A DNA stretch of 64,000 nucleotides. Origin: Patescibacteria group bacterium (lineage in GTDB: Bacteria > Patescibacteriota > Microgenomatia > 0-14-0-10-38-17). Under the pieces are notes generated by a model, which was given only the letters and a program-made list of their open reading frames with translations, was not told the origin of the DNA and did not search any database. Shown here in pieces: positions 1,575 to 63,545 of this stretch (position 1 is the first letter of the stretch; every line of letters begins with the position of its first letter). Location of the stretch: positions 74,132 to 138,131 of the forward strand of contig JBMNNJ010000001.1 in assembly GCA_050953885.1 (NCBI GenBank), in the 5' to 3' direction. The position numbers and the translations under genes were made by a program.

Positions 1575-1640
1575 GGAAAATTTTCTGCCGTCGGCAGAAA
1601 ATTTAATCCGCCAGCTGGTGGATTGCCTTTTGACTTTTCT

Positions 1641-3780: not shown

Positions 3781-4030
3781 TCGCCCCGCTCTGGCGGGGC
3801 TGAAATTAAGAAATTGAAAATGGGGAAAAATTTTGTTTCATTATTGCGGGCTGACCATAACTGTCATTCTGACGAAAGTCAGAACGAATAACTAAATTCA
3901 AAAGTTAAAATTTAAAAGTCAAAAGTACAAGTTAAAATTAAAAAGTAGAGCAAAAAGAACTTTTAACTTTTGACTTGCAATTTTGATCCGCCAGCTGGCG
4001 GATTGACTTTTGAATTTTGAATTATTTTTT
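3781..4030. repeat. intergenic repeat cluster: GC hairpin gccccgc-tctg-gcggggc (possible lysS terminator), gtcattctgacgaaagtcagaa hairpin, AT-rich k-mer element, ccgccagctggcgg palindrome
   Basis: Every module recurs elsewhere in the window; see findings. Confidence 0.7.
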
Positions 4031-4094: not shown

Positions 4095-4643
4095 ATGATC
4101 ACTCGTGAAGAAGCCTTAAAACTTTTGGAAGAAAATTTATCCAATCAAAATTTGGTAAAGCATAGTTTGGCTTCAGAAGCAGTAATGCGCGCTTTGGCGC
4201 GTTATTTGGGCGAGAATGAAGAGGAGTGGGGTTTGGCCGGGCTTTTGCATGATTTAGACGCTCAAATTGTCTCGCCCCAAGAGCATGGTTTGAAAACGGT
4301 GGCCATTTTGGGAGAAAGGATCACTCCTGCCATGGCGCAGGCGATTAAGGCTCATAACCAACCTTTTAATAATATTAAACGAGAAAGCAAGTTTGATTAC
4401 GCTTTGGCAGCGGGGGAAACAATTACCGGTTTAATTGTCGCTTCAACGTTGGTTTTGCCGAGCAAAAAATTAGCCGATTTAAAAGCCGAGAGTGTTTTGA
4501 AAAGATTTGGGGAAAAGCATTTTGCCGCTGGGGCGCGGCGGGAAGATATTATTTTATGCGAAAAGCTGGGATTAAGCTTGGAAGAGTTTGTTTCCCTTGC
4601 CTTAAAAGCGATGCAGGAGGTAAGCGGGGAATTAGGGTTATAA
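4095..4643 (+). CDS. HD-domain metal-dependent phosphohydrolase (small, 182 aa)
   Basis: H...HD signature (VKHSLASEAV ... GLLHDLD). Confidence 0.6.
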   Translation: MITREEALKLLEENLSNQNLVKHSLASEAVMRALARYLGENEEEWGLAGLLHDLDAQIVSPQEHGLKTVAILGERITPAMAQAIKAHNQPFNNIKRESKFDYALAAGETITGLIVASTLVLPSKKLADLKAESVLKRFGEKHFAAGARREDIILCEKLGLSLEEFVSLALKAMQEVSGELGL

Positions 4644-4747
4644 TAAGATAAATTATTAAACTGTTAAATTGTTATATTTTTTAGAAAATTCAAAATTAAA
4701 ACAAAAAAAACTTTTGACTTTTGAATTTTGCATTTTGAATTATCTTT

Positions 4748-6004
4748 ATGCTTTCTATCGACTTTATTCGCCAAAACAAGGAGTTGGTTAAAAAGGAAGC
4801 GGTAGAAAAACAGCTTGATCCCAAGGTGGTGGATCAGCTTTTAGCCATTGACGAGGAAAGGCGGGAGCTAATTCAGAAAATAGAAGTCCTGCGTCAGCAA
4901 AGAAAAACTGCTTCTCAAAAGAGAGACATTGAGACGGGGAAAAAGATAAAAGAAGAGTTGGGAAAGCTTGAGTCGGAGCTTAAAAAGAAAGAAGAGGAAT
5001 ATAAAAACCTCATGCTTTTGGTTCCCAATATTTCCTCGCCGGATACACCCCTGGAAGATAAGGAAATTTATCGTTGGGGTAAGAAGCCAAAATTTAATTT
5101 TCCGCCGCTTTCTCATCTTGAGTTGGGGGAAAAGTTAGACCTTATTGACCTTGAAAAAGGAGTGCAAACCGCCGGCTTTAGGGGTTATTATCTTAAAAAT
5201 GAAGCGGCCCAACTTCATTTTGCCCTTCTTTTTTATGCTTGGCAGAAAATTATCAGCAAAGGCTTTACTCCGCTGTTAGTGCCAACAATTTTGCGGGAAT
5301 TTGCTCTCTTAGGAAGCGGCCATTTTCCTTTTGGCCGGGAGGATATCTATCAGATTGCCAATCCCGGTAAGCTTGAAAGCGGGAAAACCATAAGCGAACC
5401 ATTGTTTTTAGCCGGTACCGCCGAACCCTCTCTTTTGGCATATTTTGCCAACGAAACTTTAAAAGAAGAGGATTTGCCGGTTAAAGTTTGCGGCTGGACA
5501 CAGTGTTATCGCTCGGAGGTGGGCAGTTACGGCCGTGACACGCAAGGGATTTACCGGATTCATGAGTTTATGAAGGTGGAACAGGTAGTTTTATGCCCGG
5601 CCGATGAGAAAGTTTCTGACGAGTGGTTGGAGAAAATGCGTATTTATTCGGAAGAAATTTTGCGTGATTTAAAACTTCCTTATCGGGTTATTCAAGTAGG
5701 GAAAAAAGAAATGGGGGCAGGAAAGAGGAAAATGTATGACTTGGAAACCTGGATGCCCTCGCGGCAAGGTTATGGGGAAACCCATTCCGATTCAAATTTA
5801 ACCGACTGGCAGGCGCGGCGGTTAAATATTAAGTATAAGACCAAAAAAGGAGAAATAAAGTTTGTACATTGTCTTAATAACACCGTTTTGGCCTCGCCGC
5901 GAATTTTAATTGCCGTTTTGGAAAATTTTCAGCAAAAAGACGGCTCCATTTTAATCCCCAAAGTTTTACAAAAACTGGTCGGAAAGAAAAAAATCGCCCG
6001 CTGA
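4748..6004 (+). CDS. serS: seryl-tRNA synthetase
   Basis: N-terminal coiled-coil arm followed by a class II core (GFTPLLVPTILRE, YRSEVGSYGRDTQGIYRIHEF, GETHSDSNLTDWQARRL). Confidence 0.9.
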   Translation: MLSIDFIRQNKELVKKEAVEKQLDPKVVDQLLAIDEERRELIQKIEVLRQQRKTASQKRDIETGKKIKEELGKLESELKKKEEEYKNLMLLVPNISSPDTPLEDKEIYRWGKKPKFNFPPLSHLELGEKLDLIDLEKGVQTAGFRGYYLKNEAAQLHFALLFYAWQKIISKGFTPLLVPTILREFALLGSGHFPFGREDIYQIANPGKLESGKTISEPLFLAGTAEPSLLAYFANETLKEEDLPVKVCGWTQCYRSEVGSYGRDTQGIYRIHEFMKVEQVVLCPADEKVSDEWLEKMRIYSEEILRDLKLPYRVIQVGKKEMGAGKRKMYDLETWMPSRQGYGETHSDSNLTDWQARRLNIKYKTKKGEIKFVHCLNNTVLASPRILIAVLENFQQKDGSILIPKVLQKLVGKKKIAR

Positions 6005-6089
6005 GTCCCGGTGTTAATTAACTTTCAAGCTCAAAAAATCCTTCGAAAAAAGGACAGGGGTTTTTCTTGTTTTTTTGACGTGATAAGCA

Positions 6090-6133
6090 AATACTATAGA
6101 CACTAAATTGCTATATAGTAATTTAGTGAAAAA
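6090..6133. repeat. 45-bp conserved element containing a 26-28 bp near-perfect palindrome (cactaaattgctatatagtaatttagtg); second copy at 16316-16361
   Basis: Two copies about 10 kb apart, both followed by gaaaaa. Confidence 0.7.
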
Positions 6134-6204
6134 TTAAGAAAATTTTTTTTGGGGGGAGCAAATCTAATTTTTTAAAACCTGTCTTTTTAGTCTTGAAACC
6201 AGAG

Positions 6205-6285
6205 GTGTAAATAGCCCCGCCGTGGCGGGATCCGCCCCGAGCGGACCGCCAAAGGCGGATCCCGCTATGGCGGGACAACCCACCT
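6205..6285. repeat. GC-rich nested palindromes (gccccgccgtggcggg ... gggatccgcc/ggcggatccc ... cccgctatggcgggac) directly 3' of the minus-strand MiaB-like gene; possible terminator
   Basis: Related palindromes at 3783, 24054 and 30725. Confidence 0.6.
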
Positions 6286-8190
6286 CTAAGGTGTAACTGC
6301 TTTTTCCAGCCAATGGGCGGCTTTTTTTACAAGGGGTTCTTTTTCTTTTTCAGCCAAAGAAAGCATCTTAAAAGCAAGCTCTTCCCAGTTTTCAACTTTA
6401 TTTTTAAGCTTTACGGTGGTTACCAGAGCGGCTCTTTTTAGCCAAATGTTTTCGGAATTTAGCCAATCATAAAGAAGATTATTCTTTTTTGGGGAATTTT
6501 TTAAGACAGGAGCCAAAACTTCGCCGGCAAGAGTGTCAGTTACGGCCCAATTGTTAATATTTTTGGTAATTAATTTTTCTAACCAGGAAATATCTTTTAT
6601 TGCCAAATTTTTTTGGTATAAACCTAAAAGAAAAATCCCCGCCAGCTTGCTATCTAAATTTTTGGTAGAAATTAATTTTTCCGCGGTAGTAAAACAAACC
6701 GCGGTTGTTTTTAACTCTGGATATTCTTTCCAATATTTTTTAATGATTTTTCTGATTTCTTTTGTTCTCACTCCATAAGAAATAATTTTTTCTCCAATTA
6801 ACTTGTTGCGGCTTTGAGCGAATTTTTTATCTTGATTTTTCCGCAGTTCTTGATCAAGAAAGCGGGAAAAGTCTTTATCGGGTTTTTTCAAAAGTAATTT
6901 GCCGTAAAGTTTTTTATTGCCGGCCAGGCCGGTAATTTCTACGGGGATAATTTTGGGCGCTAATTTTTGAGAGGTGTCAATTTCTATTTCCCAAAAATTT
7001 TCCGTCAAGCCTTGCCATGCTTTCCCCCTTTTTCCTAAAATTAAGCAATTTAATTTTTTGCCGATGAGTTTTTTTCCTTCCTCTTGGCGAATTTCTTTGG
7101 TTAGAGCGCGAACTTTTCGGCTTCTTTCTTTTTTAATTTCCGGCGGGATTTCTTTCCAGAGACCCTTTTCAATCATTTTTTCGGCAGTAGTACCCGGTCG
7201 GGGAGAGAAACGAAAGGTGTGGGTAAAGGCAATTCTTGTCTCTTCAATATATTGTAGCGTTTGCCGAAAATCTTCTTCGGTTTCTCCCGGAAAGCCAACT
7301 AAAATGTCCGCCCGCAAATTAAATTCAGGGATTTCTTGTTTTATATATTGTAGTAGCTTTTTTGTTTTATTTAGATCGGTTTTTGGCCGATTCATTAATC
7401 GGTGAAGACGGGGCGAGCCGGTTTGGAGGGCAAGATGAAAATAAATAGAAAGGCGTTTTTCTTGTTGATGGTCTTTTAGATAAGTTTCTATAAGAGAGGG
7501 AGTAATTAAATTAGGGGTAAGTGAGCTTAGGGAAAGGCGAGGGATTTTCGTTTTTGTTAAGATTAAATTGATAAGATCGTTAAGGTTAAGATTGGGTTTT
7601 AAGTCTTGGCCAAAGGCAGAAAGATTAATACCGCATAAAACCACTTCCTGAACACCCCGACCTACCAGTTGGTTAATTTCTTTAATAATTTCTTTTGGCG
7701 GTTTGCTTTGAAAGTTGGGGCGCAAAAGAGGGACGATGCAGAAGGAACAATATTGTTGGCAACCGTCCTGAATTTTTACCCATTCTCGAGCCGGCGCTTC
7801 TTTGCCTTGAAAAGTTTTTTTCTTTTCCGGAAAATGTGGAAAGCAAGACGCGATTATTTGGGGAATTTTTTCTTTATCGGGATTACCAATAAAAAGATCG
7901 GCCGCCGGTAAGTTTATTCCTAATTTTTTTTGGACCTCAACGGCGCAACCGGTGGCCACTAAAAAACTTTGGGGGAATTCTTTCTTAAAATGGTTGATGG
8001 CCTGACGGGCTTCATGCTCGGCTTTTTTAGTAACGGCACAGGTGTTTAAAATGATTAAGTCGGGAGCGGTTTTATTTTTGGTGTCAAAAAGAGCAAAACC
8101 TTTATCAATTAACTCTTCTTGAATTTTTTTGCTTTCTGCTTGGTTAACCCGACAACCGAAGGTTTGGATGAGGAAAGAAGGCGGTTTCAT
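6286..8190 (-). CDS. MiaB/RimO-family radical-SAM methylthiotransferase (MTTase N-domain, CxxxCxxC, TRAM) with an extra C-terminal ~190-aa AlkD/AlkC-like HEAT-repeat domain
   Basis: Start chosen at MKPPSFLIQTFGCRVNQ. Radical-SAM motif CQQYCSFC, TRAM segment, then a tail that aligns with AlkD (NWAVTDTLAGEVL, ENIWLKRAAL, KKAAHWLEKA). Confidence 0.8.
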   Translation of the reverse strand: MKPPSFLIQTFGCRVNQAESKKIQEELIDKGFALFDTKNKTAPDLIILNTCAVTKKAEHEARQAINHFKKEFPQSFLVATGCAVEVQKKLGINLPAADLFIGNPDKEKIPQIIASCFPHFPEKKKTFQGKEAPAREWVKIQDGCQQYCSFCIVPLLRPNFQSKPPKEIIKEINQLVGRGVQEVVLCGINLSAFGQDLKPNLNLNDLINLILTKTKIPRLSLSSLTPNLITPSLIETYLKDHQQEKRLSIYFHLALQTGSPRLHRLMNRPKTDLNKTKKLLQYIKQEIPEFNLRADILVGFPGETEEDFRQTLQYIEETRIAFTHTFRFSPRPGTTAEKMIEKGLWKEIPPEIKKERSRKVRALTKEIRQEEGKKLIGKKLNCLILGKRGKAWQGLTENFWEIEIDTSQKLAPKIIPVEITGLAGNKKLYGKLLLKKPDKDFSRFLDQELRKNQDKKFAQSRNKLIGEKIISYGVRTKEIRKIIKKYWKEYPELKTTAVCFTTAEKLISTKNLDSKLAGIFLLGLYQKNLAIKDISWLEKLITKNINNWAVTDTLAGEVLAPVLKNSPKKNNLLYDWLNSENIWLKRAALVTTVKLKNKVENWEELAFKMLSLAEKEKEPLVKKAAHWLEKAVTP

Positions 8191-8194
8191 GGCT

Positions 8195-8250
8195 AAAAAA
8201 CACGAATTAACGCGAACGGGAAACGAATGAACGCGAATGAGCGAATAATT
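8195..8250. repeat. acgcgaat / acgaatg periodic repeat array
   Basis: cacgaattaacgcgaacgggaaacgaatgaacgcgaatgagcgaat; related arrays at 18470, 21325 and 41858. Confidence 0.6.
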
Positions 8251-8256
8251 GGCAAA

Positions 8257-8346
8257 GCACACGGGATTAAACAGGATGTTTACGGGATGAAACAGGATAA
8301 AAAATCCCGTTCAATCCTGTCCTAAATCCTGTTGTATCCCGTGTGC
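8257..8346. repeat. about 90-bp imperfect palindrome (gcacacgggat ... acaggat x2 | atcctgt x2 ... atcccgtgtgc) in the divergent MiaB-like/secA intergenic region
   Basis: Arm-to-arm reverse-complement match read directly from the sequence. Confidence 0.7.
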
Positions 8347-11254: not shown

Positions 11255-11314
11255 GAACCGGGGGACGGGAGCGGAAAAAAATACAAGAAGTGCTGTTATC
11301 CGAAGTACGGGTAA
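11255..11314 (+). pseudogene. relic second copy of the SecA C-terminal zinc-finger tail (EPGDGSGKKYKKCCYPKYG-stop), different frame, no start codon
   Basis: Translation of 11255-11314 gives the SecA tail motif with synonymous changes relative to the real tail. Confidence 0.6.
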
Positions 11315-11456
11315 AAAAAATTCAAAATTTAAAATTCAAAAGTTAAAATTACAACTCAAAATTAAAAAGTTTTTAGCGCGCACTGAAGTGCGCTACTACA
11401 AAAAATGGAATAGCGGACTTTAGTCCGCGCCGGTAATTTAACAATTTAAAAAATTC

Positions 11457-14637: not shown

Positions 14638-14770
14638 ACTTCGCCGGCGTTTCTTCAGCAAGGAGTATTTTTTGCAAAAGAAGGCGGGATTATGGCATAA
14701 TGATAAAGAAAGTTAAACTCGTAATGCGTAACAGGTAATGCGTAATGTGTAAATGCAAAGCGCAAAGAGT

Positions 14771-14843
14771 GTAGGGGCGCATCACGATGCGCCCGCATCT
14801 TGACACAAATTATCTAACGGGCGATTCGTGAATCGCCCCTACA
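14771..14843. repeat. structured element bounded by GTAGGGGCG/CGCCCCTAC inverted repeats, with two inner hairpins (ggcgcatc-ac-gatgcgcc and gggcgattc-gt-gaatcgccc)
   Basis: Larger copy at 21367-21483 and a minimal copy near 25270. Confidence 0.7.
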
Positions 14844-16119: not shown

Positions 16120-16190
16120 TTTAATCCCGAGGTTCCTGCCTAATCAACCCCCGGAGTTGATTAGATTTGCAACCTCGGGAGCAATACTTA
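16120..16190. repeat. cccgaggtt ... ctaatcaacccccggagttgattag ... aacctcggg hairpin element
   Basis: Related copies at 25423-25475 and 35800-35920. Confidence 0.65.
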
Positions 16191-18091: not shown

Positions 18092-18468
18092 AGCCGGGTG
18101 ATCTCTTGGCTTGTTTTGGCCAGCTGGGAGGCGGAAAAACCACCTTTCTTCAAGGAGTGGCCAAGGCTTTGGGGATAAAGGAGCGAATTTTAAGTCCGAC
18201 TTTTATTTTGATGCGCCAATACGAACTTCCCCACCAAAAAAGAGGGATAGAAAGATTTTATCATTGGGACTGGTATCGGATTAAGGGAGAAAAGGAAGCC
18301 TTGGCGGCGGGTTTTGGCGAAAATCTTCTTGATCCAAAAGCGGTAGTGGCGGTAGAATGGGCCGAAAACGCCCTTAAAGCCTTGCCGAGAAAAAGAATTG
18401 AGGTTCATTTTGAATATGGGGAGAAAGAAAAAGAGAGAAGAATAAGGATTATTAGAAAGAATTGTTAA
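18025..18468 (+). CDS. tsaE: tRNA t6A37 threonylcarbamoyl-adenosine biosynthesis ATPase TsaE
   Basis: GQLGGGKTTF P-loop, SPTF, HWDWYR motifs. Start at MEYLTK; overlaps the VanZ gene 3' end. Confidence 0.8.
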   Translation: MEYLTKSAQETKELGEKIGANLKPGDLLACFGQLGGGKTTFLQGVAKALGIKERILSPTFILMRQYELPHQKRGIERFYHWDWYRIKGEKEALAAGFGENLLDPKAVVAVEWAENALKALPRKRIEVHFEYGEKEKERRIRIIRKNC

Positions 18469-18469
18469 A

Positions 18470-18535
18470 AGACGCGAATTGACGCGAATGAGAAACGAAG
18501 GGACGCGAATGAGCGAATGGAATGGTTGGAGTAGC
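18470..18535. repeat. acgcgaat periodic repeat array directly after the tsaE stop
   Basis: gacgcgaattgacgcgaatgagaaacgaagggacgcgaatgagcgaatggaatgg. Confidence 0.6.
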
Positions 18536-18906: not shown

Positions 18907-18922
18907 AAGTTAAAAGAAACTA

Positions 18923-20416
18923 ATGAGAAAAATCCTGCCCTTTTTTCTAACTTTAATAATTTTTCTTTTTGGTTTTTCCAGTGAGTCTTTTGCCTCTTTT
19001 TCTCCCTCCTCGGCTCAAGATTTAAGTTTTTATGGTGAGTATTGCCAGAGCCAAGAGTGGCGGTGGCTTTGCCAGGTTGGGCAAACGGAATTGGCGGCCT
19101 TAAAAGAAGAAGACGGCTGGGAGTTGGTTTTAGATGATTTTGCTTTTTTTGGCCAAAATCGGGGGATAGAGTTTGTTTTTCCTGCCCTTGAAAACGGTTT
19201 AGAAAATCCGGTGTTAGTCCTTTCCTTACGGGCAATGGGGGAAACTTTTGGTTGGGCGCGGCTGGAAATTTACCAAAAAGACACTTGGCAAATGGTTTGG
19301 GGTGGAGTAGGCCAGGACCGCTTGGTTTTTTATGGCGATAAACCCTGGCGGGAAGAAGTTAATCTAAAAGAAGTTTTGGGAGGTGGTTTAGAAGAAGAAT
19401 TAAAGGAGGGTTTGCGAGTGCGGTTACAAGTGGGGCCGTTAGTTTCCTCAAGCTATGTTTTGCCCGCTATTGACCAAGCAGTGATTATTGACAAGGGTAA
19501 CCAAAACGAGATTTTAACTCCCACCTTGGGGATAACATTGGCCTTAAGTCTCACCCCAACGGCGACTCCTATGGTTTTTCCTTCCCCTACCTTAACGTCA
19601 ACGCTAACCCCAACAGCGACTCCGACACCAACTGGCACCATTGAGGAAAATAAAGTTGTTTGGATTTTCCCCCAAGATGGGGAAACGGTTTCGGGGAAAG
19701 TGATTTTAGAAGCAAGATTAGAGGAGGAAGGGGAAGAAACGAAAACCTTGCGGGAGGTCTTTTTCTGGCGGCCTTTGGGCCAAAACTCGTGGCAGCAACT
19801 TGCGGAAAATATTTGGGAAACCGAAAATCTACCCTTGGGAGAATACCAACTGCAGACAAAACTAACCAGCGAGGAAGGCGAGGAAAAAAGCGCGGAAATA
19901 GTGGTGAGCTTAGGGGCGAGGATTTTTAATGTTTTTTTAACCGGGAGAACTCTTTCTTGGCAAACCGATCGACCCACCCTGGGCCGAATTATTTATGATC
20001 GTGCTTCTCATTTGGGGGTTGAGAAAAATTATCCCAATTTTGGTTATCTTTGGGCAAGTGAGCCTACCAGTAGGCAAAAGCAAACCAGCCATCAGTTTAC
20101 TTTTGGGCAAATTCCCGCTGGTCGGTATTATTACCGCATTTTGGCTTTTGGCTCGCCGGTTTCCTACAGCGACGAGTATGTTTTGGAAACGGATTCTTTG
20201 CTAATCGAAGAAGAAAAGGTTTTGGGCCAAGCGGCAAGCGCTGAAGCAAGCATTTCTTTGCCACCGACACCAGAGGAAAACGGAGAAGAAGTTTTTGATC
20301 AAAGCCAACCATTAGCTGAAGAAAAGCCATTCAATTTTCCTCGCTTTTTAGCCTTGTTTTTACTAGGGGTTTTGGCCGGAGGAGGGATTGTTCATTTGAC
20401 AAAGAAGGAAAAATAG
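18923..20416 (+). CDS. secreted hypothetical protein with a PT-rich linker and C-terminal TM anchor
   Basis: Signal peptide, TPTATPTPTG linker, C-terminal hydrophobic segment. Confidence 0.45.
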   Translation: MRKILPFFLTLIIFLFGFSSESFASFSPSSAQDLSFYGEYCQSQEWRWLCQVGQTELAALKEEDGWELVLDDFAFFGQNRGIEFVFPALENGLENPVLVLSLRAMGETFGWARLEIYQKDTWQMVWGGVGQDRLVFYGDKPWREEVNLKEVLGGGLEEELKEGLRVRLQVGPLVSSSYVLPAIDQAVIIDKGNQNEILTPTLGITLALSLTPTATPMVFPSPTLTSTLTPTATPTPTGTIEENKVVWIFPQDGETVSGKVILEARLEEEGEETKTLREVFFWRPLGQNSWQQLAENIWETENLPLGEYQLQTKLTSEEGEEKSAEIVVSLGARIFNVFLTGRTLSWQTDRPTLGRIIYDRASHLGVEKNYPNFGYLWASEPTSRQKQTSHQFTFGQIPAGRYYYRILAFGSPVSYSDEYVLETDSLLIEEEKVLGQAASAEASISLPPTPEENGEEVFDQSQPLAEEKPFNFPRFLALFLLGVLAGGGIVHLTKKEK

Positions 20417-20432: not shown

Positions 20433-21323
20433 ATGAGCGCTAAAAAAGGTTTAAAAGATTTTTTTATTCCCGGCGAAAGTAATAATTTTCGCGCCCGTCT
20501 GCTCCATCTGCCATTTTTGGCCGCCTTTCTCTTTTTTTTCCTTTTTTTTAAAACCGCCCTTTCTTTATACCTTTTAACTAATCCGGCGGTTTTAGGTTAT
20601 TCTTCGCAAATTACCAGCGCCCAGATTATAGAGTTAACAAATGCGGAACGGCAGAAGTATGGCCTGCCGGCGTTAACGCCTAGCCCTCTTTTGGAAAAAG
20701 CGGCGCGGCTTAAGGCGGAGGATATGTTTGCCGGCGACTATTGGTCGCATCGCTCGCCTACGGGAAAAACCCCTTGGGATTTTTTGAAAGAAGTTGGTTA
20801 TAATTATGTTTACGCTGGGGAAAATTTAGCCCGTGACTTTGCCGACGCGTCGGGAGTGGTGGCGGCGTGGATGGCCTCGCCGACTCATAAAGAAAATATT
20901 GTAAGTAAGAATTATCAGGAAATTGGGGTGGCGGTGGTTGATGGCGAGCTTGGGGGTTTGAAGACTACTCTGGTGGTGCAGATGTTTGGGACGCCGACAA
21001 GGCTGGTGGGAGAAAAGCCGCCGGCGCCGGTTCAGGAAATGCCGCCAGAGATAAAAGCAAAAACGGAGGAAAAAGGAGGAGTGCTTCCCTCGGCGGAAAA
21101 TAATAATCTTGGAGAAAAAGGAGGAACGATTGACCTTTTATCCTTAGAAAAACTGGCGGTGGTTTTTTGCTTGGGGTTACTCTTAGGAGTTTTAGTGGTA
21201 GATAAGGTGGTGGCGGAAAGAAGGCAAACGCCGCGATTAACAGCCGACAACAATGCCCATCTTATTTTCCTGCTTTTGGTGATTTTAGTAGTGGTTCTTT
21301 TGGAAGCGGGGACGATTGTTTAA
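20433..21323 (+). CDS. CAP/SCP/PR-1-like domain protein with N-terminal TM and C-terminal TM
   Basis: CAP motifs (LTNAERQKYGLPAL, YWSHRSP, GENLA, HKENI). Confidence 0.7.
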   Translation: MSAKKGLKDFFIPGESNNFRARLLHLPFLAAFLFFFLFFKTALSLYLLTNPAVLGYSSQITSAQIIELTNAERQKYGLPALTPSPLLEKAARLKAEDMFAGDYWSHRSPTGKTPWDFLKEVGYNYVYAGENLARDFADASGVVAAWMASPTHKENIVSKNYQEIGVAVVDGELGGLKTTLVVQMFGTPTRLVGEKPPAPVQEMPPEIKAKTEEKGGVLPSAENNNLGEKGGTIDLLSLEKLAVVFCLGLLLGVLVVDKVVAERRQTPRLTADNNAHLIFLLLVILVVVLLEAGTIV

Positions 21324-21324
21324 G

Positions 21325-21483
21325 ATACGCGAATTAACACGAATGGAAAACGAATGGACGCGAATTTGTAGGGGCGGGGTTTTTCCCCGCCCGAAACCAA
21401 AATGAATTCTATAGGGGCGATTCATGAATCGCCCGTTAGGGTAATTGGCGCCAATATGCGGGCGCATCGTGATGCGCCTCTAC
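21325..21483. repeat. acgcgaat array (21325-21365) followed by a 117-bp GTAGGGGCG-bounded structured element with 4 inner hairpins
   Basis: Same families as 18470 and 14771. Confidence 0.65.
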
Positions 21484-21500
21484 ATATTTTTTTATGAAAT

Positions 21501-21764: not shown

Positions 21765-22502
21765 ATGAAGGGTATTATCTTAGCTGGTGGTTTAGGCACG
21801 CGCCTTTATCCTCTCACTTGGGCAACCAACAAGCATCTTCTGCCTGTTTTTGACCAGCCGATGATTTTTTATCCGATTAATACTTTAGTAAAGGCAGGGG
21901 TTAGGGAGATTTTGGTGGTTACCGGCGGGCCGCATGCGGGACATTTTCTTCAGGTTTTGAAAAACGGCAAGGAGTTGGGATTGAAGCATTTGGAATATGC
22001 TTATCAGGAAGGAGAAGGGGGCATTGCTGCCGCCCTTTCTTTGGCGGAGGACTTTGCCGATGGAGAAGCGGTGGCGGTGGTTTTAGGCGATAACACCACC
22101 GATGCCGATATTTCCCCGGCGGTCAAAAATTTTCAAGCTGGAGCGACCGTTTTTTTAAAAAAGGTGCCCGACCCCGAACGTTTTGGTGTACCTGTTTTTT
22201 CCAAAAAAAACCCTAAAAAAATTATTAAGATTGAAGAAAAACCGGCCAAACCGCAATCAAATTTTGCCGTTACCGGCCTTTATCTTTATGATAATGAGGT
22301 TTTCAAAATTATTAAAACCTTGAAACCGTCGGCGCGAGGAGAGCTGGAGATAACCGATGTTAATAATGGCTATCTTGAACAAGGCAAGCTTAACTGGTTT
22401 GAGCTTGAGGGTTTTTGGTCCGACGCCGGCACCTTTGAGAGCCTTTTTCGTACTAACCAATATTGGGCCAAGAAAAAGATGAGCAAGGCTAAACTCCCTT
22501 AA
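21765..22502 (+). CDS. sugar-1-phosphate nucleotidyltransferase (short RmlA-like glucose-1-P thymidylyltransferase)
   Basis: GIILAGGLGTRLYPLT N-terminal motif; 245 aa. Confidence 0.8.
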   Translation: MKGIILAGGLGTRLYPLTWATNKHLLPVFDQPMIFYPINTLVKAGVREILVVTGGPHAGHFLQVLKNGKELGLKHLEYAYQEGEGGIAAALSLAEDFADGEAVAVVLGDNTTDADISPAVKNFQAGATVFLKKVPDPERFGVPVFSKKNPKKIIKIEEKPAKPQSNFAVTGLYLYDNEVFKIIKTLKPSARGELEITDVNNGYLEQGKLNWFELEGFWSDAGTFESLFRTNQYWAKKKMSKAKLP

Positions 22503-23907
22503 TAACCGCCAAAGGCTTAAGGCGGGCGACTTTTTCGGTTAAACCTTCCTTAACTAATACTTCAACTACCTCTTCGATGTCTTTATAAGCTCCCGGCGCT
22601 TCATCGGCAACTTTATGAAAGGGAAGGTTGTAAATTATTTCTCCCATTGACTTTTCAAACTGGGAAAGGCTGATGTTTTTTTGGGCAGCGCGGCGGGACA
22701 TCAGTCGGCCGGCGCCATGGTTGACGGAATGGAAGGTTTCCTTATTTTTGGCCGTGCCGACAACGATATAAGAGGCAGTGCCCATACTGCCGGGGATAAG
22801 AGCCGGATGGCCGGTTTTGGCAAAAGAGGGAGGATTTTGGGGATGACCGGCCGGCAGCGCCCGAGTGGCGCCTTTGCGATGGACTAAAACCTTTTGACCA
22901 AAATGACTTTCCCACTTAGCAATGTTATGGGCAACATCGTAAAGAAGGGCAAGGGGGTCATTATTGCCAAAAGTTTCCCGCCAAGCCTGGCGGACAAAGT
23001 GGGTGATAATCTGGCGGTTGGCAAAGGCAAAGTTAACGCAGGCGGCCATGGCGCCAAAGTAGCGTTCTCCTTCAGGGGTAGTAACCGGGAGAGCGGCTAA
23101 GCCTTGATTTGGAATTTGCAGACGGTATTTTTCTTTTTCCCGCCAAAGAATTTGGGTGTAGTCAAGGCAAGTTTGGTGGCCTAAGGCACGGGAGCCGGTA
23201 TGGATCATCACCGTTATTTGATTAGGGAAAAGGTCGAATGCTTGGGCAGTTGAGGGGTCAAAAATCCGGTCTACTTTTTGGATTTCAATAAAGTGGTTGC
23301 CGGAGCCCAGAGTGCCTAATTCGTTTTTAGCGCGCCCGATCGCTTTTGTCGAGAGGTAAGAAAATTCTGCTTCTTTCATTTGGCCATTTTCTTCCGTTTT
23401 TTCCAAATCGTCTTTTTGCGCCAGACCCTTTTTTACTAAAAAAGAAAGCCCTTCCCGGCAAACCTTTTCCAGCGGCAGATCAAGACGCCCTTTTTGGTGT
23501 TGCCCGCCAAGGCCCAAGGGCACAAGCTGGCTAATTTTCTCAATTAATTGCCGGAGCAAAGAGGGGGTAAAAACCTTTTCGTCAAAAAACTGTTGGGAAA
23601 GAAGAAGACGCACCCCGCAATTAATATCCATCCCCACGGCGCCGGCGGAAACTAAACCATTCGTAGCCATAACGCCGCCAATTGGCAGGCCGAAACCTTC
23701 ATGGATATCCGGCATTCCCAAAACCGGCGAGATAACCTCCGGCAGGCAGGCAGCGGCAACTAATTGTTCCAAGCTTCTATCTTCTTGAATTGGTTTCAAA
23801 AGTTTTTCAGAGGCATAAATTATTACCTCGGCTTGCATCGGCCCGCTTTTTTTGATCCGCCATTTTTGAGGAGAAAGTGGTTCAAGGTTAAACATTATTG
23901 TCGGCAA
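22489..23907 (-). CDS. rtcB: RNA 3'-phosphate ligase RtcB
   Basis: MDINCGVR, GSGNHFIE, HNIAKWE, IPGSMGT and SVNHGAGR motifs. Confidence 0.9.
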   Translation of the reverse strand: MPTIMFNLEPLSPQKWRIKKSGPMQAEVIIYASEKLLKPIQEDRSLEQLVAAACLPEVISPVLGMPDIHEGFGLPIGGVMATNGLVSAGAVGMDINCGVRLLLSQQFFDEKVFTPSLLRQLIEKISQLVPLGLGGQHQKGRLDLPLEKVCREGLSFLVKKGLAQKDDLEKTEENGQMKEAEFSYLSTKAIGRAKNELGTLGSGNHFIEIQKVDRIFDPSTAQAFDLFPNQITVMIHTGSRALGHQTCLDYTQILWREKEKYRLQIPNQGLAALPVTTPEGERYFGAMAACVNFAFANRQIITHFVRQAWRETFGNNDPLALLYDVAHNIAKWESHFGQKVLVHRKGATRALPAGHPQNPPSFAKTGHPALIPGSMGTASYIVVGTAKNKETFHSVNHGAGRLMSRRAAQKNISLSQFEKSMGEIIYNLPFHKVADEAPGAYKDIEEVVEVLVKEGLTEKVARLKPLAVIKGV

Positions 23908-24049: not shown

Positions 24050-24300
24050 TTTTGTCCCGCCATAGCGGGACCCCGTTGCGGCGGGGCATTTTGATCCGCC
24101 AGCTGGCCTTGTACCAGCACGGTACAGAGCTGACGGACAGGGTTCATTCCTGTAGCTGTCATTCCTGAACTAAATTCAGGACAGGCTCTGACGAAAGTCA
24201 GGATCTAAATGATTCTGAATCAAGTTCAGAATGACGCTAATCGTGGCCGTCATTCTGATGAATCCGCCAGCTTGCGGATCAAATCTGAAAGCTACCACGC
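24050..24300. repeat. composite cluster of GC palindromes and hairpin modules in the divergent rtcB/24455 intergenic region
   Basis: gtcccgccatagcgggac, ccgccagctgg (interrupted), tctgacgaaagtcagga, gattctgaatcaagttcagaatgacg, gatccgcaagctggcggattc. Confidence 0.75.
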
Positions 24301-24454: not shown

Positions 24455-24958
24455 ATGCCCGATAAAAAAATTTTTTTCAACAATCCTGTTTTGGGGAAAA
24501 AATCGCTGGTGGAAGTGGTGGAGGAGATTGTGGCTTTTATTAACCATGACCCCCAATCTTTTTACCACTTAATTATTGGCACCGATTCGCAAGACCATGC
24601 ACTGGAGAAAGTTAATGGTTATCTTAATTTAGTCTCGGCGATTGTTATTTATCGCGACGGCCATGGCGGCCGTTATTTTTGGCGACGGCAAAGGCTGCCT
24701 CATTCCCGAAATCTTCGGGAGAAAATTTATCAGGAAACTCTTACCTCGTTGGACTTAGCGCAAAAGCTGGTGCCTTTGTTGCACCAAAAACTTAATGGTA
24801 ATGAATATGAGCTGGAGATTCATATTGATGTGGGTAATGCCGGGCCAACACGGGAAATGATTCGCGAGCTGGTGGCGATGGTAAATAGTAACGGGTTTCG
24901 GGCTAAAACCAAACCCGAATCATATGGCGCCACCTGCGTGGCGGATAAATACACCTAA
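24455..24958 (+). CDS. conserved hypothetical protein, possibly RNase-H-like DUF458/YkuK family (tentative)
   Basis: HLIIGTDSQ motif; 167 aa; family assignment from memory only. Confidence 0.35.
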   Translation: MPDKKIFFNNPVLGKKSLVEVVEEIVAFINHDPQSFYHLIIGTDSQDHALEKVNGYLNLVSAIVIYRDGHGGRYFWRRQRLPHSRNLREKIYQETLTSLDLAQKLVPLLHQKLNGNEYELEIHIDVGNAGPTREMIRELVAMVNSNGFRAKTKPESYGATCVADKYT

Positions 24959-24959
24959 A

Positions 24960-25180
24960 AAAAGTCAAAAGTTAAAAGTCAAAAGTTAAATATAAAAAGT
25001 TAGTAACTCGTAATAAGTAAATTCAAAATTCAAAAGTCAAAATTCAAAATTGCAAGTCAAAAGTTAAAAATTTTTTTATTCTACTTTTGAATTTTAACTT
25101 GTAATTTTGACTTTTAAATTTTAACTTTTGACTTTTAGTTATTCTCTGTCCGCCAGCTGGCGGACAGAATCATTCCCTCA
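24960..25180. repeat. about 170-bp AT-rich palindromic k-mer region (aaagtcaaaagttaaaa units) followed by the perfect 22-bp palindrome ctgtccgccagctggcggacag
   Basis: The 55-bp segment ttctacttttgaattttaacttgta.ttttgacttttaaatttt recurs at 30903 and, reverse-complemented, at 3905. Confidence 0.7.
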
Positions 25181-25422
25181 TTGCTACATTACTCTTGCTA
25201 TTATTATCTTGCTATTATTATCTTGCTATTATTGTCTTGTTATTATTACAGGTCTAATATCGTCATCATCGCTAGTGACTTATTTAGGGGGCGATCGCCC
25301 CTATTTTAATTCCCTTTTAAATTTAAAAATTTTTAGTTAATTATTTTTCTTCTATATTTTTAAAAATATAGCGGTAAAATATAGGTGAGTCAGAAAAAAG
25401 CCAGGCGAGAAAATTTTTTTAT

Positions 25423-25475
25423 CCCGAGGTTTGAAGCTAATCAACTCCGGGGGTTAAATGGCTTCAAACCTCGGG
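25423..25475. repeat. perfect 15-bp stem hairpin cccgaggtttgaagc ... gcttcaaacctcggg with ctaatcaactccggggg loop
   Basis: Family also at 16120 and 35800-35920. Confidence 0.7.
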
Positions 25476-25623
25476 AGTTAGCTATAAAATAATTCCGGTG
25501 ATTATTTTATTTTGATTTCCTAATTTCGCGAGCGCAAGCGAGTTAATTTCTCAATTTCAGCCCCGTCAGGGCGGGACGAATTTCTAACTTCTAATTTTCT
25601 TTTTTTTATGTGTTAGAATAAAG

Positions 25624-30699: not shown

Positions 30700-30960
30700 A
30701 ATCAGTAGAGTAAAAGGCAAAGACCTGCCGCAGTGGGGTCTTGCTATGGCGGGACAAAACCTAAATCAAAGTTCAAAAACAAAAGATAAACTCAAATGTT
30801 AAATCGCAAAACGCAAATCTACAACGCAAAACTCAAAACTTGAAAGACAAAAACAGAATTACAATTTAGAAATACAAATATTAAGCCCCTAAAGTTTTTT
30901 TGTTCTACTTTTGAATTTTAACTTGTACTTTTGACTTTTAAATTTTGACTTTTGAATTTA
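30700..30960. repeat. intergenic repeats: gtaactcgtaacaagtaa unit, gcagtggggtcttgctatggcgggac palindrome, AT-rich k-mer element
   Basis: Shares the 55-bp AT-rich segment with 25084 and 3905. Confidence 0.65.
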
Positions 30961-30962
30961 TT

Positions 30963-31358
30963 ATGAACGATTGTGTTTTTTGCCAAATTGCGGCCGGGAA
31001 AATTCCCTGTTTTAAAATTTACGAAGGGGAGGATTTTTTGGCTTTTTTGGATATTAATCCTTGGGTTGAAGGCCACACTTTGGTAATCCCCAAAAAGCAT
31101 TACCGTTGGGTTTGGGATATGCCGGAAGAATTAGTCGGTCAGTATTTTGCCGTGGTTAATAAAGTTGCTAATCATTATCGGCAGGTTTTTAAAACAGAAT
31201 TTGTGATGAGCTGGATTTATGGTTTTGAGGTACCCCACGCTCATGTTCATCTTTTCCCCAATTCGCGGGGAAAAATTGCCTTTTACCCAAAAGAAAAATT
31301 GCCAACGCTTACGAACGAGGAAGGGGAAAAGTTAGCGGCGGCATTAAAATTAAAATAA
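30963..31358 (+). CDS. HIT-family (histidine triad) nucleotide hydrolase
   Basis: HVHLFP histidine triad. Start at MNDCVFCQI. Confidence 0.88.
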   Translation: MNDCVFCQIAAGKIPCFKIYEGEDFLAFLDINPWVEGHTLVIPKKHYRWVWDMPEELVGQYFAVVNKVANHYRQVFKTEFVMSWIYGFEVPHAHVHLFPNSRGKIAFYPKEKLPTLTNEEGEKLAAALKLK

Positions 31359-35559: not shown

Positions 35560-35930
35560 AAATTATGACACGACTAACAAGCCGTCATTCTGAACTCGAT
35601 TCAGAATCGTTGTTTAATGCCTAAAGAAATGATTCTGATTTTCATCAGGACAACGCTTTCGTTAGAATGACGGCGGGAGGAGTCAGGATGACGACAGCCG
35701 TGCCGTCATTCCGGACTTGATCCGGAATCTGTGTTATTACCAAGGAAAGATTCTGACTTTCGTCAGAATGACAGAGAAGCGCCAGAATGACAGTAAGGGA
35801 ATAATTCTGCCTAATCAACTCCGGGGACTAATCCCGAGGTTTGAAGCTAAAAAAGTCCCGAGGTTTGAAGGCTCGCCAACTCCGGGGGTTAAATAGCTTC
35901 AAACCTCGGGAAAATAAGCAGAAATGATAA
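35560..35930. repeat. large composite repeat cluster (hairpin modules in both orientations plus tandem cccgaggtttgaag hairpins)
   Basis: gccgtcattctgaactcgattcagaatcg, gattccggatcaagtccggaatgacgg, cccgaggtttgaagc x2, gcttcaaacctcggg. Confidence 0.75.
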
Positions 35931-37524: not shown

Positions 37525-37760
37525 AGCTTAAAGTTGTTTTTTTAGATTTAAGTTTTGAATTGTTGTTTTGATCTGCCAGCTGGCGGATTGAGTTGTAGTT
37601 TTAAGTTTTGCGATTTAACATTTGAGTTTATTTTTTGTTTTTGAACTTTAATTTAGGTTCTAATCTTTTCCGCCAGCTGGCGGGTTGATATTTGATTTTT
37701 GTATTTTTTTAATACTGATTTTCATCAGGACAACAGTTGCGTTTTGTCCGTAGTCCAACC
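37441..37760. repeat. AT-rich element (reverse-complement copy of 50645-50710) plus ccgccagctggcgg palindromes
   Basis: gatctgccagctggcggattgag and ttccgccagctggcgggttg. Confidence 0.7.
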
Positions 37761-41849: not shown

Positions 41850-42024
41850 AAATTACATTGTTAGAAGACGCGAATTAACACGAATGTAAGGCGGCCCCAT
41901 GTGTGTTCGCCTGTCAAAGGGCTTGTGTTTTGCATGTTTAAAACCATTAATCGGGTCGACACATGGGTCGACCCCTACCAATTCCCGTCACAGGCGGGAT
42001 CCCTACCTCGTTTAATTAACGTAA

Positions 42025-50399: not shown

Positions 50400-50710
50400 A
50401 CAATCTAAATGCAAAGCGCGATCCGCCAGCTGGCGGACAGGATCTACCGTTCTTTAGACATTAATAACGATTCTGAATCAAGTTCAGAATGACGCTAATC
50501 GTAACCGTCATCCTGACGAAAGTCAGGATCTTTCCTTGTCATTAACACAGATTCCGGATCAAGTCCGGAATGACGGTTTCCGAGTTCGTCATTCTGACGA
50601 ATTCGCCAGCGGGCGGATTAAACTTTAAAAAGTTTTAACATTTACCATGTAGTTTTGCCATTTGACATTTGCGTTTTGAGATTTGAGTTTGTTTTTCGTG
50701 TCCATTCGTT
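50400..50710. repeat. composite intergenic repeat cluster (palindrome, three hairpin modules, AT-rich element)
   Basis: gatccgccagctggcggacaggatc; gattctgaatcaagttcagaatgacg; catcctgacgaaagtcaggat; gattccggatcaagtccggaatgacgg. Confidence 0.8.
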
Positions 50711-53369: not shown

Positions 53370-53620
53370 CCGTATAATTTTGGTACGGGACTTGACGAGT
53401 TCGTCATCCTGACGAAAGTCAGGATCTGCCTTTGGCATTAACACAGATTCCGGATCAAGTCCGGAATGACGGTTTCCGAGTTTGTCGTTCTGACTCCTCT
53501 TACCGTCATTCTGACAATCCGCCAGCTGGCGGACAGGATCTGCCTCTTTCTGACGATAAGGCAGATTATAAGACAGATTCTGAATTAAATTCAGCATGAC
53601 GACCAGGGGATTATTTATGT
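53370..53620. repeat. composite repeat cluster (same modules as 50400-50640)
   Basis: The 90-aa minus-strand ORF here is simply a translation of the repeats. Confidence 0.8.
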
Positions 53621-56565: not shown

Positions 56566-56728
56566 GAAATGATAAAATAAAGACGAATCATTGTCGCCTT
56601 ACAAAAAATTCATGGTTGATAATATCGTTTTTTTAAAACCTGAAATCTGCCTTATTAACAAAGCCCAAAAATTAAAAGCCAAAAGCACAAGTTAAAATTA
56701 AAAATTTTGGCTTTTAAATTTTTTTATT

Positions 56729-63459: not shown

Positions 63460-63545
63460 CTGTAACCGCAGTCGTCATTCTAACGATCCGCTCGCTGGCG
63501 GACAGAATCTGTTTTGATTCTGAATCAAATTCAGAATAACGCTCT
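63425..63545. repeat. composite hairpin-module cluster
   Basis: gattctgaatcaagttcagaatgac; gtcgtcattctaacgatccgctcgctggcggacagaatc; gattctgaatcaaattcagaataacg. Confidence 0.75.

What the first reader, a model, noticed from the sequence alone, without database searches (positions are those of the whole stretch)
14771..14843. MITE-like structured element bounded by GTAGGGGCG inverted repeats with variable internal hairpin cargo
At 14771-14843 the stems GTAGGGGCG and CGCCCCTAC enclose two perfect inner hairpins (ggcgcatc-ac-gatgcgcc and gggcgattc-gt-gaatcgccc), predicting a three-way-junction fold. At 21367-21483 the same termini (second arm cgcctctac) enclose four hairpins, including gggcgggg-ttttt-ccccgccc and the same gggcgattcatgaatcgccc and ggcgcatcgtgatgcgcc. 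Near 25268-25290 the termini abut directly (agggggcgatcgccccta), which looks like an empty or minimal version. Shared terminal inverted repeats with variable cargo resemble a miniature inverted-repeat transposable element (MITE). Conserved multi-hairpin junctions also resemble small structured RNAs.
Basis: seen in the sequence. Interest (0 to 1): 0.55.

Follow-up and report, generated by a model that had tools for sequence, protein, structure and literature searches.

The report
GTAG-tagged REP doublet (REPIN-like) repeat
The flagged sequence is a known kind of small bacterial repeat: two inverted GTAG-headed palindromes (a REP dimer or REPIN). Here it sits between genes of a tiny-genome Candidatus Shapirobacteria bacterium, which is a new host rather than a new kind of element.

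Summary
14771-14842 (+) and 21411-21483 (-) are the same ~72-nt unit in opposite orientation, about 86% identical including the interior. Each unit has two inverted 24-nt GTAG-headed perfect hairpins and a conserved ~24-nt spacer. The second locus adds a third GTAG hairpin (21368-21392). It is therefore not shared terminal repeats with variable cargo.

The proposed 9-bp outer stem overlaps both inner hairpins, so the three-way junction cannot form as drawn. The minimum-energy fold is one long hairpin.

The units meet the published structural definition of canonical REPs, and the doublet is a head-to-head GTAG dimer (REPIN).

- The same doublet, with sharp GTAG/CTAC borders and no target-site duplication, occurs in five other contexts on related CPR-like contigs.
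- It is present or absent at three orthologous intergenic sites among close relatives.
- The hairpin family occurs in many phyla and in viral contigs. Elsewhere it sits in frame inside RayT (TnpA_REP) genes, the reported hallmark of subclass 2.4.

No RayT was found in about 84 kb of this genome, so mobilisation here is inferred. Verdict: new member of a known kind, of modest interest.

The parts
14771..14794 (+). REP-A: GTAG tag followed by a perfect 9-bp stem and 2-nt loop (GTAGGGGCGCATCACGATGCGCCC). It is the left half of doublet 1.
14795..14818 (+). Spacer of doublet 1 (GCATCTTGACACAAATTATCTAAC). It is homologous to the spacers of the other copies (consensus GCATATTGGCATGAATTACCC..AAC).
14819..14842 (-). 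REP-B: GTAGGGGCGATTCACGAATCGCCC on the minus strand, the right half of doublet 1. It is identical 24/24 to hairpins found in Clostridia, Thermotogaceae and Anaerolineaceae MAGs.
21368..21392 (+). Extra REP singlet GTAGGGGCGGGGTTTTTCCCCGCCC (8-bp stem, 5-nt loop). Together with the adjacent doublet it forms a trimer.
21411..21483 (-). Doublet 2, the same unit as 14771-14842 but inverted. REP-B' is at 21411-21434 (head degenerated to ATAG), the spacer is at 21435-21459, and REP-A' is at 21460-21483 (head GTAGA). In a second strain, REP-B' plus half the spacer is replaced by an unrelated A-rich palindromic module.
   Evidence: (I19)
25284..25304 (.). TTAG-GGGGCGATCGCCCC-TAT, a loop-less 14-nt palindrome sharing TAGGGGCGAT with REP-B. 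It is probably a REP remnant with the hairpin tip deleted.
41953..42006 (-). Two further GTAG-headed units in tandem on the minus strand. One is GTAGGGGTCGACCCATGTGTCGACCC (8-bp stem). The other is a weak one, GTAGGGATCCCGCCTGTGACGGGAATTG.
14672..14701 (+). Promoter-like site TTGCAA-18-(TG)CATAAT just after ftsX. Its hexamers are conserved in two relatives whose downstream intergenic sequence is otherwise unrelated. If it is real, doublet 1 lies in the 5' UTR of the M23 peptidase gene (ATG at 14878).
21316..21366 (+). ACGCGAAT-type degenerate repeat module that directly abuts the GTAG head. The same module precedes GTAG in several other copies (L127, L129, L130, L133, L138).
   Evidence: (D15)

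Best explanation
The element is a head-to-head dimer of GTAG-tagged repetitive extragenic palindromes, that is, a REPIN-type non-autonomous element, in a Candidatus Shapirobacteria (CPR/Patescibacteria) genome. Each half is a canonical REP: the tetranucleotide GTAG directly 5' of a G+C-rich perfect hairpin.

The two halves are distinct variants, A (..GCATC..GATGC..) and B (..GATTC..GAATC..). They face each other across a conserved ~24-nt spacer, so the single strand can form either two local hairpins or one long hairpin.

The most likely mode of spread is the one proposed for REP/REPIN elements. A HUH-Y1 transposase of the RayT/TnpA_REP type binds the folded hairpin plus the GTAG guide on single-stranded DNA at the replication fork. 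It then cuts and rejoins the DNA without making target-site duplications.

Once inserted, the element is carried in untranslated mRNA regions, where such hairpins can affect mRNA stability. Doublet 1 lies in a probable 5' UTR and doublet 2 lies between co-directional genes.

**Shown:** the anatomy, the family membership by structure, the dispersal, the sharp borders, the absence of duplications, the polymorphism among relatives, and the link of this hairpin family to RayT genes in other organisms.

**Inferred:** that a RayT acts, or recently acted, in this genome, and any RNA-level effect.
For: **Anatomy and identity of the unit**
- GTAG lies 0 nt from 8-9-bp perfect stems whose foot is GGGC, with 2-5-nt loops.
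- The two window copies are one unit in opposite orientation.
- The long hairpin is the minimum-energy fold at -40 to -43 kcal/mol (z = -7.8).

**Dispersal and borders**
- The metagenome scan found the same doublet, with a homologous spacer, in 5 further contexts on CPR-like contigs of 41-54% G+C.
- Homology stops exactly at GTAG and CTAC, and there are no flanking direct repeats.
- All copies are intergenic and occur in both orientations.

**Turnover at three orthologous sites**
- ftsX|M23: the doublet is in the window but not in L140 or L142.
- radical-SAM|secA: it is in L127 (93% nt identity in secA) but not in the window.
- CAP|DUF5656: it is partly replaced in strain L001 and absent in L140.

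**Evidence that the hairpin is selected**
- In 173 matches to GTAGGGGCG-NN-TC-NN-GA-NN-CGCCC from many phyla, the free dinucleotides are complementary in 164. Chance would give about 6%. At least 13 different complementary pairs are used.

**Link to RayT**
- A profile built from RayT homologues hits 4 of the 120 REP-selected genome loci: L063, L104, L054 and L099.
- L063 matches NF047646 'REP-associated tyrosine transposase' at 3e-15.
- PMC6006769 reports this as unique to TnpA_REP subclass 2.4.

**Published definitions that fit**
- The REP rules are in PMC6006769.
- 'HH' dimers 20-100 bp apart, and trimers made of a dimer plus a singleton, are described in PMC3733652.
Against: - No RayT/Y1 transposase gene was found in the 64-kb window, in about 20 kb of extra flanks from the same genome, or in any CPR-like locus fetched. 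This was tested by regex, by phmmer and by a clade-specific HMM. The rest of the genome could not be searched.
- Copy number is low: 2 doublets plus a few singlets in about 84 kb.
- At the orthologous sites the difference is a replacement of one repeat module by another, not a clean filled-versus-empty pair. Recombination could therefore contribute.
- Within the 7 CPR doublets there is no compensatory change, so neither fold is supported by covariation there.
Confidence: 0.7

Rival explanations
1. It is the same structural class (REP dimer) but an orphan. The lineage has no RayT. The copies are relics that are shuffled, replaced and lost by homologous or illegitimate recombination, possibly after DNA uptake from relatives, rather than by transposition.
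For: - No RayT was found in any sequence of this organism that could be read.
- Orthologous sites differ by module replacement between conserved flanks.
- Heads are degenerating (ATAG, GTAGA) and truncated copies exist: L132-L134, L138 and the 25288 palindrome.
- Copy number is low.
Against: - The identical 72-nt unit with sharp GTAG/CTAC borders lies in at least 7 unrelated flanking contexts. Recombination alone does not explain this easily.
- A genome 93% identical in secA carries a copy at a site where the window has none. This argues for recent movement.
Confidence: 0.2
2. It is a classical MITE. In this view it is a deletion derivative of a DDE-transposase insertion sequence, defined by terminal inverted repeats, with variable internal cargo and an 'empty' version at about 25290.
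For: - It is a short, non-coding, dispersed element with inverted ends.
- Its presence or absence is polymorphic among relatives.
Against: - There are no target-site duplications in 7 copies.
- The interior is conserved rather than variable.
- The 'ends' are complete REP hairpins that also occur alone and in many phyla.
- No transposase or parent IS lies nearby.
Confidence: 0.03
3. It is primarily a functional RNA element, either a structured small RNA or a UTR hairpin selected in place for mRNA stabilisation, attenuation or termination. In this view dispersal is secondary.
For: - Doublet 1 lies downstream of a promoter-like site conserved in relatives, and so probably in a 5' UTR.
- The predicted structure is very stable.
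- All three point changes in REP-B stems give G-U wobbles on one strand.
- PMC3733652 notes that GT pairing suggests many GTAG repeats act as RNA.
Against: - There is no Rfam match.
- Both orientations occur relative to neighbouring genes.
- No U-tract follows the stems, and the terminator scan is negative.
- Relatives have entirely different modules in the same UTR, so no specific RNA is conserved at the locus.
- There is no compensatory change among the CPR copies.
Confidence: 0.07

Closest known systems
GTAG-tagged REPs and their 'HH' dimers and trimers (Di Nocera et al. 2013, PMC3733652)
   Same: - A GTAG tag at one end of a 6-13-bp G+C-rich stem with a 2-3-nt loop.
- Dimers with GTAG on the outside, 20-100 bp apart.
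- Trimers made of a dimer plus a singleton.
- Location between co-directional genes.
- Coexistence with CGTC-tagged repeats in the same genome.
   Different: - The host phylum (Patescibacteria/CPR) is not among the phyla listed in that paper.
- Copy number is low.
- The two halves of the dimer are fixed as two different sequence variants.
- The figures of that paper are not held, so I could not check whether one of its 24 consensus families equals GTAGGGGCG...
REPINs of Pseudomonas and Enterobacteria (Bertels and Rainey 2011, PMC3116915; PMC3337134)
   Same: - Two inverted REPs plus a spacer, acting as the unit of duplication.
- A long-hairpin fold.
- Singlets that look like decay products.
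- No coding capacity.
   Different: - Classical REPIN populations have tens to hundreds of copies and a single-copy group 2 or 3 RAYT in the same genome. Here there are few copies and no RAYT has been found.
- The related transposases elsewhere look like subclass 2.4 / group 4.
REPs of TnpA_REP subclass 2.4 / RAYT group 4, including 'double-foot' REPs (Quentin et al. 2018, PMC6006769; Bertels et al. 2017, PMC5581495)
   Same: [quoted passage not shown]
- Palindromes tagged on both sides (GTAG...CTAC) are common, at 33 sites.
- The distribution is patchy across many classes, with moderate copy numbers.
   Different: That association was seen here only in other phyla (Calditrichaceae, Oscillospiraceae and others), not in the Shapirobacteria sequence available.
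E. coli BIMEs (mosaics of Y/Z REPs with other short motifs)
   Same: - Alternating orientation of two REP variants.
- Embedding in mosaics of other short repeat modules.
- The mosaics differ between strains.
   Different: - The sequences are unrelated.
- E. coli REPs are imperfect, bulged palindromes.
- The accompanying modules here (A-rich palindromes, ACGCGAAT and CGTAATG repeats, CGTC-tagged hairpins) are different.
Bacterial MITEs such as Nezha, RUP and NEMIS
   Same: Small, non-autonomous, structured intergenic repeats.
   Different: MITEs have terminal inverted repeats matching an IS and make target-site duplications. Neither is seen here.

Membership tests
Canonical GTAG-tagged REP (structural rules in PMC6006769 and PMC3733652) | A GT[AG]G tetranucleotide lies 0-2 nt 5' of the hairpin. 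| tested here: met
   GTAG directly abuts the stem at 14771, 14842(-), 21368, 21483(-) and 41978(-). One head has degenerated to ATAG (21411).
Canonical GTAG-tagged REP (structural rules in PMC6006769 and PMC3733652) | The basal stem is fully paired over 7-20 nt, the loop is 2-5 nt, and at least 3 of the first 4 stem bases are G or C. | tested here: met
   Stems are 8-9 bp and start with GGGC. Loops are 2 or 5 nt.
Canonical GTAG-tagged REP (structural rules in PMC6006769 and PMC3733652) | Many dispersed extragenic copies occur in one genome. | tested here: inconclusive
   There are 6-8 units in 64 kb, all intergenic, and none in a further ~20 kb.
Canonical GTAG-tagged REP (structural rules in PMC6006769 and PMC3733652) | Stem pairing is kept through complementary changes among family members. 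| tested here: met
   164 of 173 cross-phylum matches have complementary free dinucleotides. REP-A (CA/TG) and REP-B (AT/AT) are each compensated internally.
REPIN (Bertels and Rainey) | Two REPs lie in inverted orientation across a short spacer and can form a long hairpin. | tested here: met
REPIN (Bertels and Rainey) | The whole doublet, spacer included, is the unit that is copied. | tested here: met
   Seven doublets in different flanks share the spacer, and homology ends at GTAG/CTAC.
REPIN (Bertels and Rainey) | A cognate RAYT gene is present in the same genome. | not testable with these tools
   None was found in about 84 kb of this genome or in the related CPR loci.
REP family of TnpA_REP subclass 2.4 | [quoted passage not shown] | tested here: met
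   This was met for the hairpin family in other organisms: L063, L104, L054, L099, 101 of 120 hits in one homologue set and 103 of 120 in the other. It was not shown for this genome. The homologue sets were biased toward proteins sharing the hairpin-encoded words.
Classical MITE | Target-site duplications flank the element. | tested here: not met
   No direct repeats flank any of 7 copies. Only a palindromic T/TT...A/AA extension is seen.
Classical MITE | The terminal inverted repeats match those of an autonomous IS. | tested here: not met
   No transposase or IS is present in the window or flanks. There is no plasmid or phage match.
Described structured RNA family (Rfam 15) | A match reaches the family's gathering score. 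| tested here: not met
   Only a tRNA was found in the window. The best E-value at the element is 0.34, to miRNA hairpin models.
Intrinsic terminator | A G+C-rich hairpin is immediately followed by a T-run. | tested here: not met
   The scan calls no terminator at either element.

The most novel reading that the evidence does not exclude
A REP/REPIN family whose 24-nt hairpin is identical in an ultra-small CPR genome, in Firmicutes, Thermotogaceae and Chloroflexota MAGs and in many viral contigs is travelling horizontally. It may travel together with subclass-2.4 RayT genes that carry it inside their own reading frame. It is active, or was recently active, in Patescibacteria. That would run against the view quoted from the REP literature (for species-specificity; abstracts listed for vertical inheritance) that REPs are species-specific and REPIN-RAYT systems are vertically inherited. 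It would also make these intergenic mosaics a driver of strain-level variation in reduced genomes.
Probability: 0.3. Interest if true: 0.55.

Novelty: new member of a known kind. Interest (0 to 1): 0.3.

Why it matters
- REP and REPIN elements have been characterised mainly in Proteobacteria and Cyanobacteria. A literature search for 'repetitive extragenic palindromic' together with 'candidate phyla radiation' found only one paper holding both phrases, and I did not read it.
- Showing that a Shapirobacteria genome carries GTAG dimers, CGTC-tagged hairpins and other modules in strain-variable mosaics tells annotators what these intergenic blocks are.
- It may explain why related contigs break there. 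Two related contigs end about 100 nt after ftsX.
- It gives markers for strain tracking.
- It raises a testable question: do such reduced genomes keep a RayT, or do they inherit orphan REPs?
- The cross-phylum identity of the hairpin is a lead on horizontal spread of subclass-2.4 RayT systems.

Tried and rejected
- **Rfam.** Searches at gathering and at E <= 10 gave nothing relevant.
- **BLAST of the element** against plasmids and phages gave no match.
- **RayT in the window and loci.** A regex for HUH plus the Y motif found nothing. phmmer with E. coli RayT found only L063. The clade HMM found L063, L104, L054 and L099 and nothing in CPR sequence.
- **Neighbour genes.** Clustering of ORFs around 120 REP-bearing genome loci found no recurrent neighbour gene.
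- **Extending the genome.** Reading about 10 kb beyond each window end found no RayT and no further GTAG hairpins.
- **Third homologue search.** The query was a low-G+C RayT carrying REP-B. It returned Oscillospiraceae-type RayTs and no CPR-named protein.
- **Covariation among the 7 CPR doublets** was uninformative because the copies are too similar.
- **Literature search** for the DNA strings and the hairpin-encoded peptides gave no relevant paper.
- **HIP1.** The resemblance of GCGATCGC in the 25288 palindrome to cyanobacterial HIP1 was judged coincidental, because the organism is CPR and the flanks match REP-B.

Full report
**1. Observation**

- GGGCG-N10-CGCCC occurs three times in the window against 0.07 expected.
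- TAGGGGCGAT occurs four times against 0.15 expected.
- Both regions fold far better than dinucleotide shuffles, with z = -7.8 and -5.4.

So the signal is real.

The anatomy differs from the description. An inverted-repeat search (pair I19) and a pairwise alignment show one thing. Positions 14770-14843 on the plus strand are the same ~73-nt sequence as 21410-21484 on the minus strand. The interior is included, and identity is about 86%. The extra length at the second locus is a third hairpin (21368-21392) plus a linker. There is no 'variable cargo'.

The proposed 9-bp outer stem shares five bases with each inner hairpin. Only GTAG/CTAC (4 bp) could close a junction. That fold scores -28.2 kcal/mol, against -40.4 for one long hairpin and -27.7 for the two local hairpins alone. 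DNA parameters give -13.3, -23.1 and -18.4.

The third site is a loop-less 14-nt palindrome at 25288-25301. It equals REP-B minus its 8-nt tip.

**2. What the unit is**

Each half is GTAG followed immediately by a perfect 8-9-bp hairpin that starts with GGGC and has a 2-nt loop.
- REP-A is GTAGGGGCGCATCACGATGCGCCC, at 14771-14794 on the plus strand.
- REP-B is GTAGGGGCGATTCACGAATCGCCC, at 14819-14842 on the minus strand.
- The GTAG heads face outward, and a 24-nt spacer lies between the halves.

This meets the rules used to define canonical REPs. Those rules require GTAG or GTGG 0-2 nt from a fully paired 7-20-nt basal stem, a loop of 2-5 nt, and a G+C-rich foot (PMC6006769, read).

The doublet is what Di Nocera et al. 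call an HH dimer: GTAG outside, usually 20-100 bp apart. The second locus is one of their 'trimers', a singleton next to a dimer (PMC3733652). In Bertels and Rainey's terms it is a REPIN (abstracts listed).

A and B differ at two stem positions, and each is compensated within its own hairpin (CA/TG against AT/AT). The local hairpins are therefore perfect, while the long hairpin always carries two 2x2 internal loops.

**3. Host and setting**

FtsX homologues name the organism as Candidatus Shapirobacteria, in Microgenomates/CPR. The window encodes housekeeping and cell-envelope glycosylation genes and no transposase.

Doublet 1 lies between ftsX and an M23 peptidase gene. A promoter-like site TTGCAA-18-TGnCATAAT at 14672-14701 is conserved in two relatives whose downstream intergenic sequence is otherwise unalignable. 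Doublet 1 is therefore probably in a ~170-nt 5' UTR. This is an inference.

Doublet 2 plus the singlet fills most of the 177-nt gap between a CAP-domain gene and a DUF5656 gene. No promoter or terminator was called there.

**4. Copies elsewhere and borders**

One metagenome scan for REP-A plus the first four spacer bases returned 12 contigs.
- Seven carry the whole doublet, in five distinct flanking contexts.
- Four carry REP-A plus only the start of the spacer.
- One (L136) is a G+C-rich contig with a different arrangement.
- Eleven of the twelve have 41-54% G+C.

In the alignment of seven doublets, homology begins exactly at GTAG and ends exactly at CTAC. The spacer is recognisably conserved, the flanks are unrelated, and no direct repeats flank the element. 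The left arm was the search pattern, so its perfect conservation is partly ascertainment.

Six of about ten contexts have AATT or AATTT just 5' of GTAG, and CTAC is usually followed by AA. This may reflect a target preference, or co-occurrence with ACGCGAAT repeat modules. It was not resolved.

All copies are intergenic and lie in either orientation relative to neighbouring genes.

**5. Turnover**

Three orthologous sites differ among close relatives.
- ftsX|M23. The window has the doublet. L140 (about 82% nt identity) and L142 (84-91%) have other repeat modules after the shared promoter region.
- radical-SAM|secA. L127 (93% nt identity in secA) has a doublet between CGAATT and TTTATCTTTTCC. 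The window has ACGCGAAT repeats and a different long hairpin there.
- CAP|DUF5656. In a second strain (L001, 95-99.6% identity), REP-B' and half the spacer are replaced by a 98-nt A-rich palindromic module, and REP-A' is damaged. L140 lacks the element.

L140, L142 and L143 contain no GTAG hairpins at all.

These are replacements rather than clean filled and empty sites, so recombination may contribute alongside transposition.

**6. The wider hairpin family and its transposase**

They come from Chloroflexota, Clostridia, Deltaproteobacteria, Cyanobacteria, Omnitrophota, Bacteroidota, Thermotogaceae and others.
- The unconstrained dinucleotides are complementary in 164 of 173 matches, and many different pairs are used.
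- 33 sites are tagged on both sides.
- REP-B is identical 24/24 to hairpins in many Clostridia MAGs.

The same pattern also saturates a scan of viral contigs, with no transposase nearby.

No neighbouring gene recurs around the genome loci.

A RayT fragment lies on L063, at phmmer 2e-5 against E. coli RayT and NF047646 3e-15. A profile built from its homologues also finds L104, L054 and L099.

In all of these the hairpin lies inside the reading frame, just after the HUH motif, and in different frames: RGGSRTAPT, VGAIHESPL and RAIRESPLQ.
- 101 of 120 homologues in one set carry such peptides.
- 103 of 120 in the other set do so (sequences also).
- Both sets are biased toward proteins sharing those words.

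Quentin et al. describe exactly this as unique to TnpA_REP subclass 2.4 (RAYT group 4). They describe that subclass as scattered over many phyla with 'double-foot' REPs. Bertels et al. report moderate repeat numbers for that group. The in-gene hairpins are therefore already known, and they tie this hairpin family to a RayT clade.

**7. What is missing**

No RayT was found in the window, in about 20 kb of added flanks, or in any CPR-like locus. The collection scans were exhausted, so the rest of the genome could not be read. Whether this lineage has its own RayT is therefore open.

Within the seven CPR doublets there are no compensatory changes. Three single changes in REP-B all give G-U on one strand, which is only a weak hint of RNA-level constraint.

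**8. Verdict**

This is a GTAG-tagged REP head-to-head dimer (REPIN-type) with an extra singlet at the second locus. It sits in a Shapirobacteria genome whose intergenic regions are mosaics of several repeat families.

The most likely mechanism is RayT-type single-strand transposition, followed by passive or mildly functional residence in UTRs. My confidence is about 0.7 for the class and the mode, and lower that a RayT is present now.

The classical MITE and three-way-junction RNA readings are not supported.

It is a new member of a known kind. Interest is modest. The main open point is the cross-phylum identity of the hairpin and the unresolved source of mobilisation in a reduced genome.

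Noticed in passing
window 24226-24258, 35583-35772, 50484-50600, 50875-50958, 53402-53547, 63433-63543: A second repeat family looks like the published CGTC-tagged REPs: a CGTC tag, an 8-bp stem starting with AT, and a 4-5-nt loop (for example CGTCATCCTGACGAAAGTCAGGAT and CGTCATTCTGAACTTGATTCAGAAT). A second strain (L001) has a ~320-nt block of these inserted at window 18917-18923 and a ~220-nt block at window 22481-22523.
   Followed up: partly
window 1608-1621, 3988-4001, 25150-25163, 37670-37683, 50423-50436, 50930-50943, 53519-53532, 63488-63501: The palindrome (T)CCGCCAGCTGGCGG(A) recurs at least 8 times. It is often nested inside the CGTC-type hairpins as an extended loop.
   Followed up: no
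window 3894-3970, 11310-11375, 24947-25145, 30788-30983, 37443-37660, 56653-56710: A-rich modules with about 10-nt periodicity (AAAGTCAAAATTCAAAAGTT...) occur in inverted pairs that form long A+T-rich hairpins. One replaces REP-B' in strain L001, and one occupies the ftsX|M23 site in relative L140.
   Followed up: partly
window 8189-8246, 18461-18518, 21316-21366, 41857-41886: Degenerate ACGCGAAT/ACGAATG tandem-like modules begin at the stop codon of the upstream gene in three of the four copies (ATTGTT(T)AA...). They often directly precede a GTAG hairpin, both here and in L127, L129, L130, L133 and L138.
   Followed up: partly
window 14720-14769; L142 3180-3260; L133 1300-1350: A CGTAATG...AAAGCGCAAAG repeat module lies just upstream of doublet 1. 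It appears inverted at the same intergenic site in relative L142, and it lies next to a truncated doublet in L133.
   Followed up: no
window 8257-8346; 16125-16180, 25422-25476, 35832-35911: There are further long intergenic hairpins: GCACACGGGAT...ATCCCGTGTGC, and a TCCCGAGGTT...AACCTCGGGA family with three copies.
   Followed up: no
L268 8684-11036 versus window 4468-6820: One sample's contig carries this segment (serS and part of the radical-SAM/DNA_alkylation gene) inverted relative to the window, at 100% identity. This is either a real population inversion or an assembly chimera.
   Followed up: no
L143 and L144 (contig ends about 100 nt after ftsX): Two independent assemblies of a relative end about 100 nt after ftsX, in the repeat-filled intergenic region. 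Their last 108 nt are identical. This suggests that these mosaics break assemblies.
   Followed up: no
L198 (viral contig, 14.5 kb), L188, L148, L176, L183: Some IMG/VR contigs carry 6-11 copies of the GTAGGGGCG hairpin within 5-14 kb. In L198 all 11 copies are on one strand. G+C is 54-65%, and no RayT was detected on these stretches.
   Followed up: partly
L054 1-378; P0241-P0360: Oscillospiraceae-type RayT genes carry two in-frame copies of REP-B in inverted orientation (VGAIHESP and RAIRESPLQ) that bracket the HUH-coding part of the gene. REPs inside the gene are reported for subclass 2.4 in PMC6006769.
   Followed up: partly
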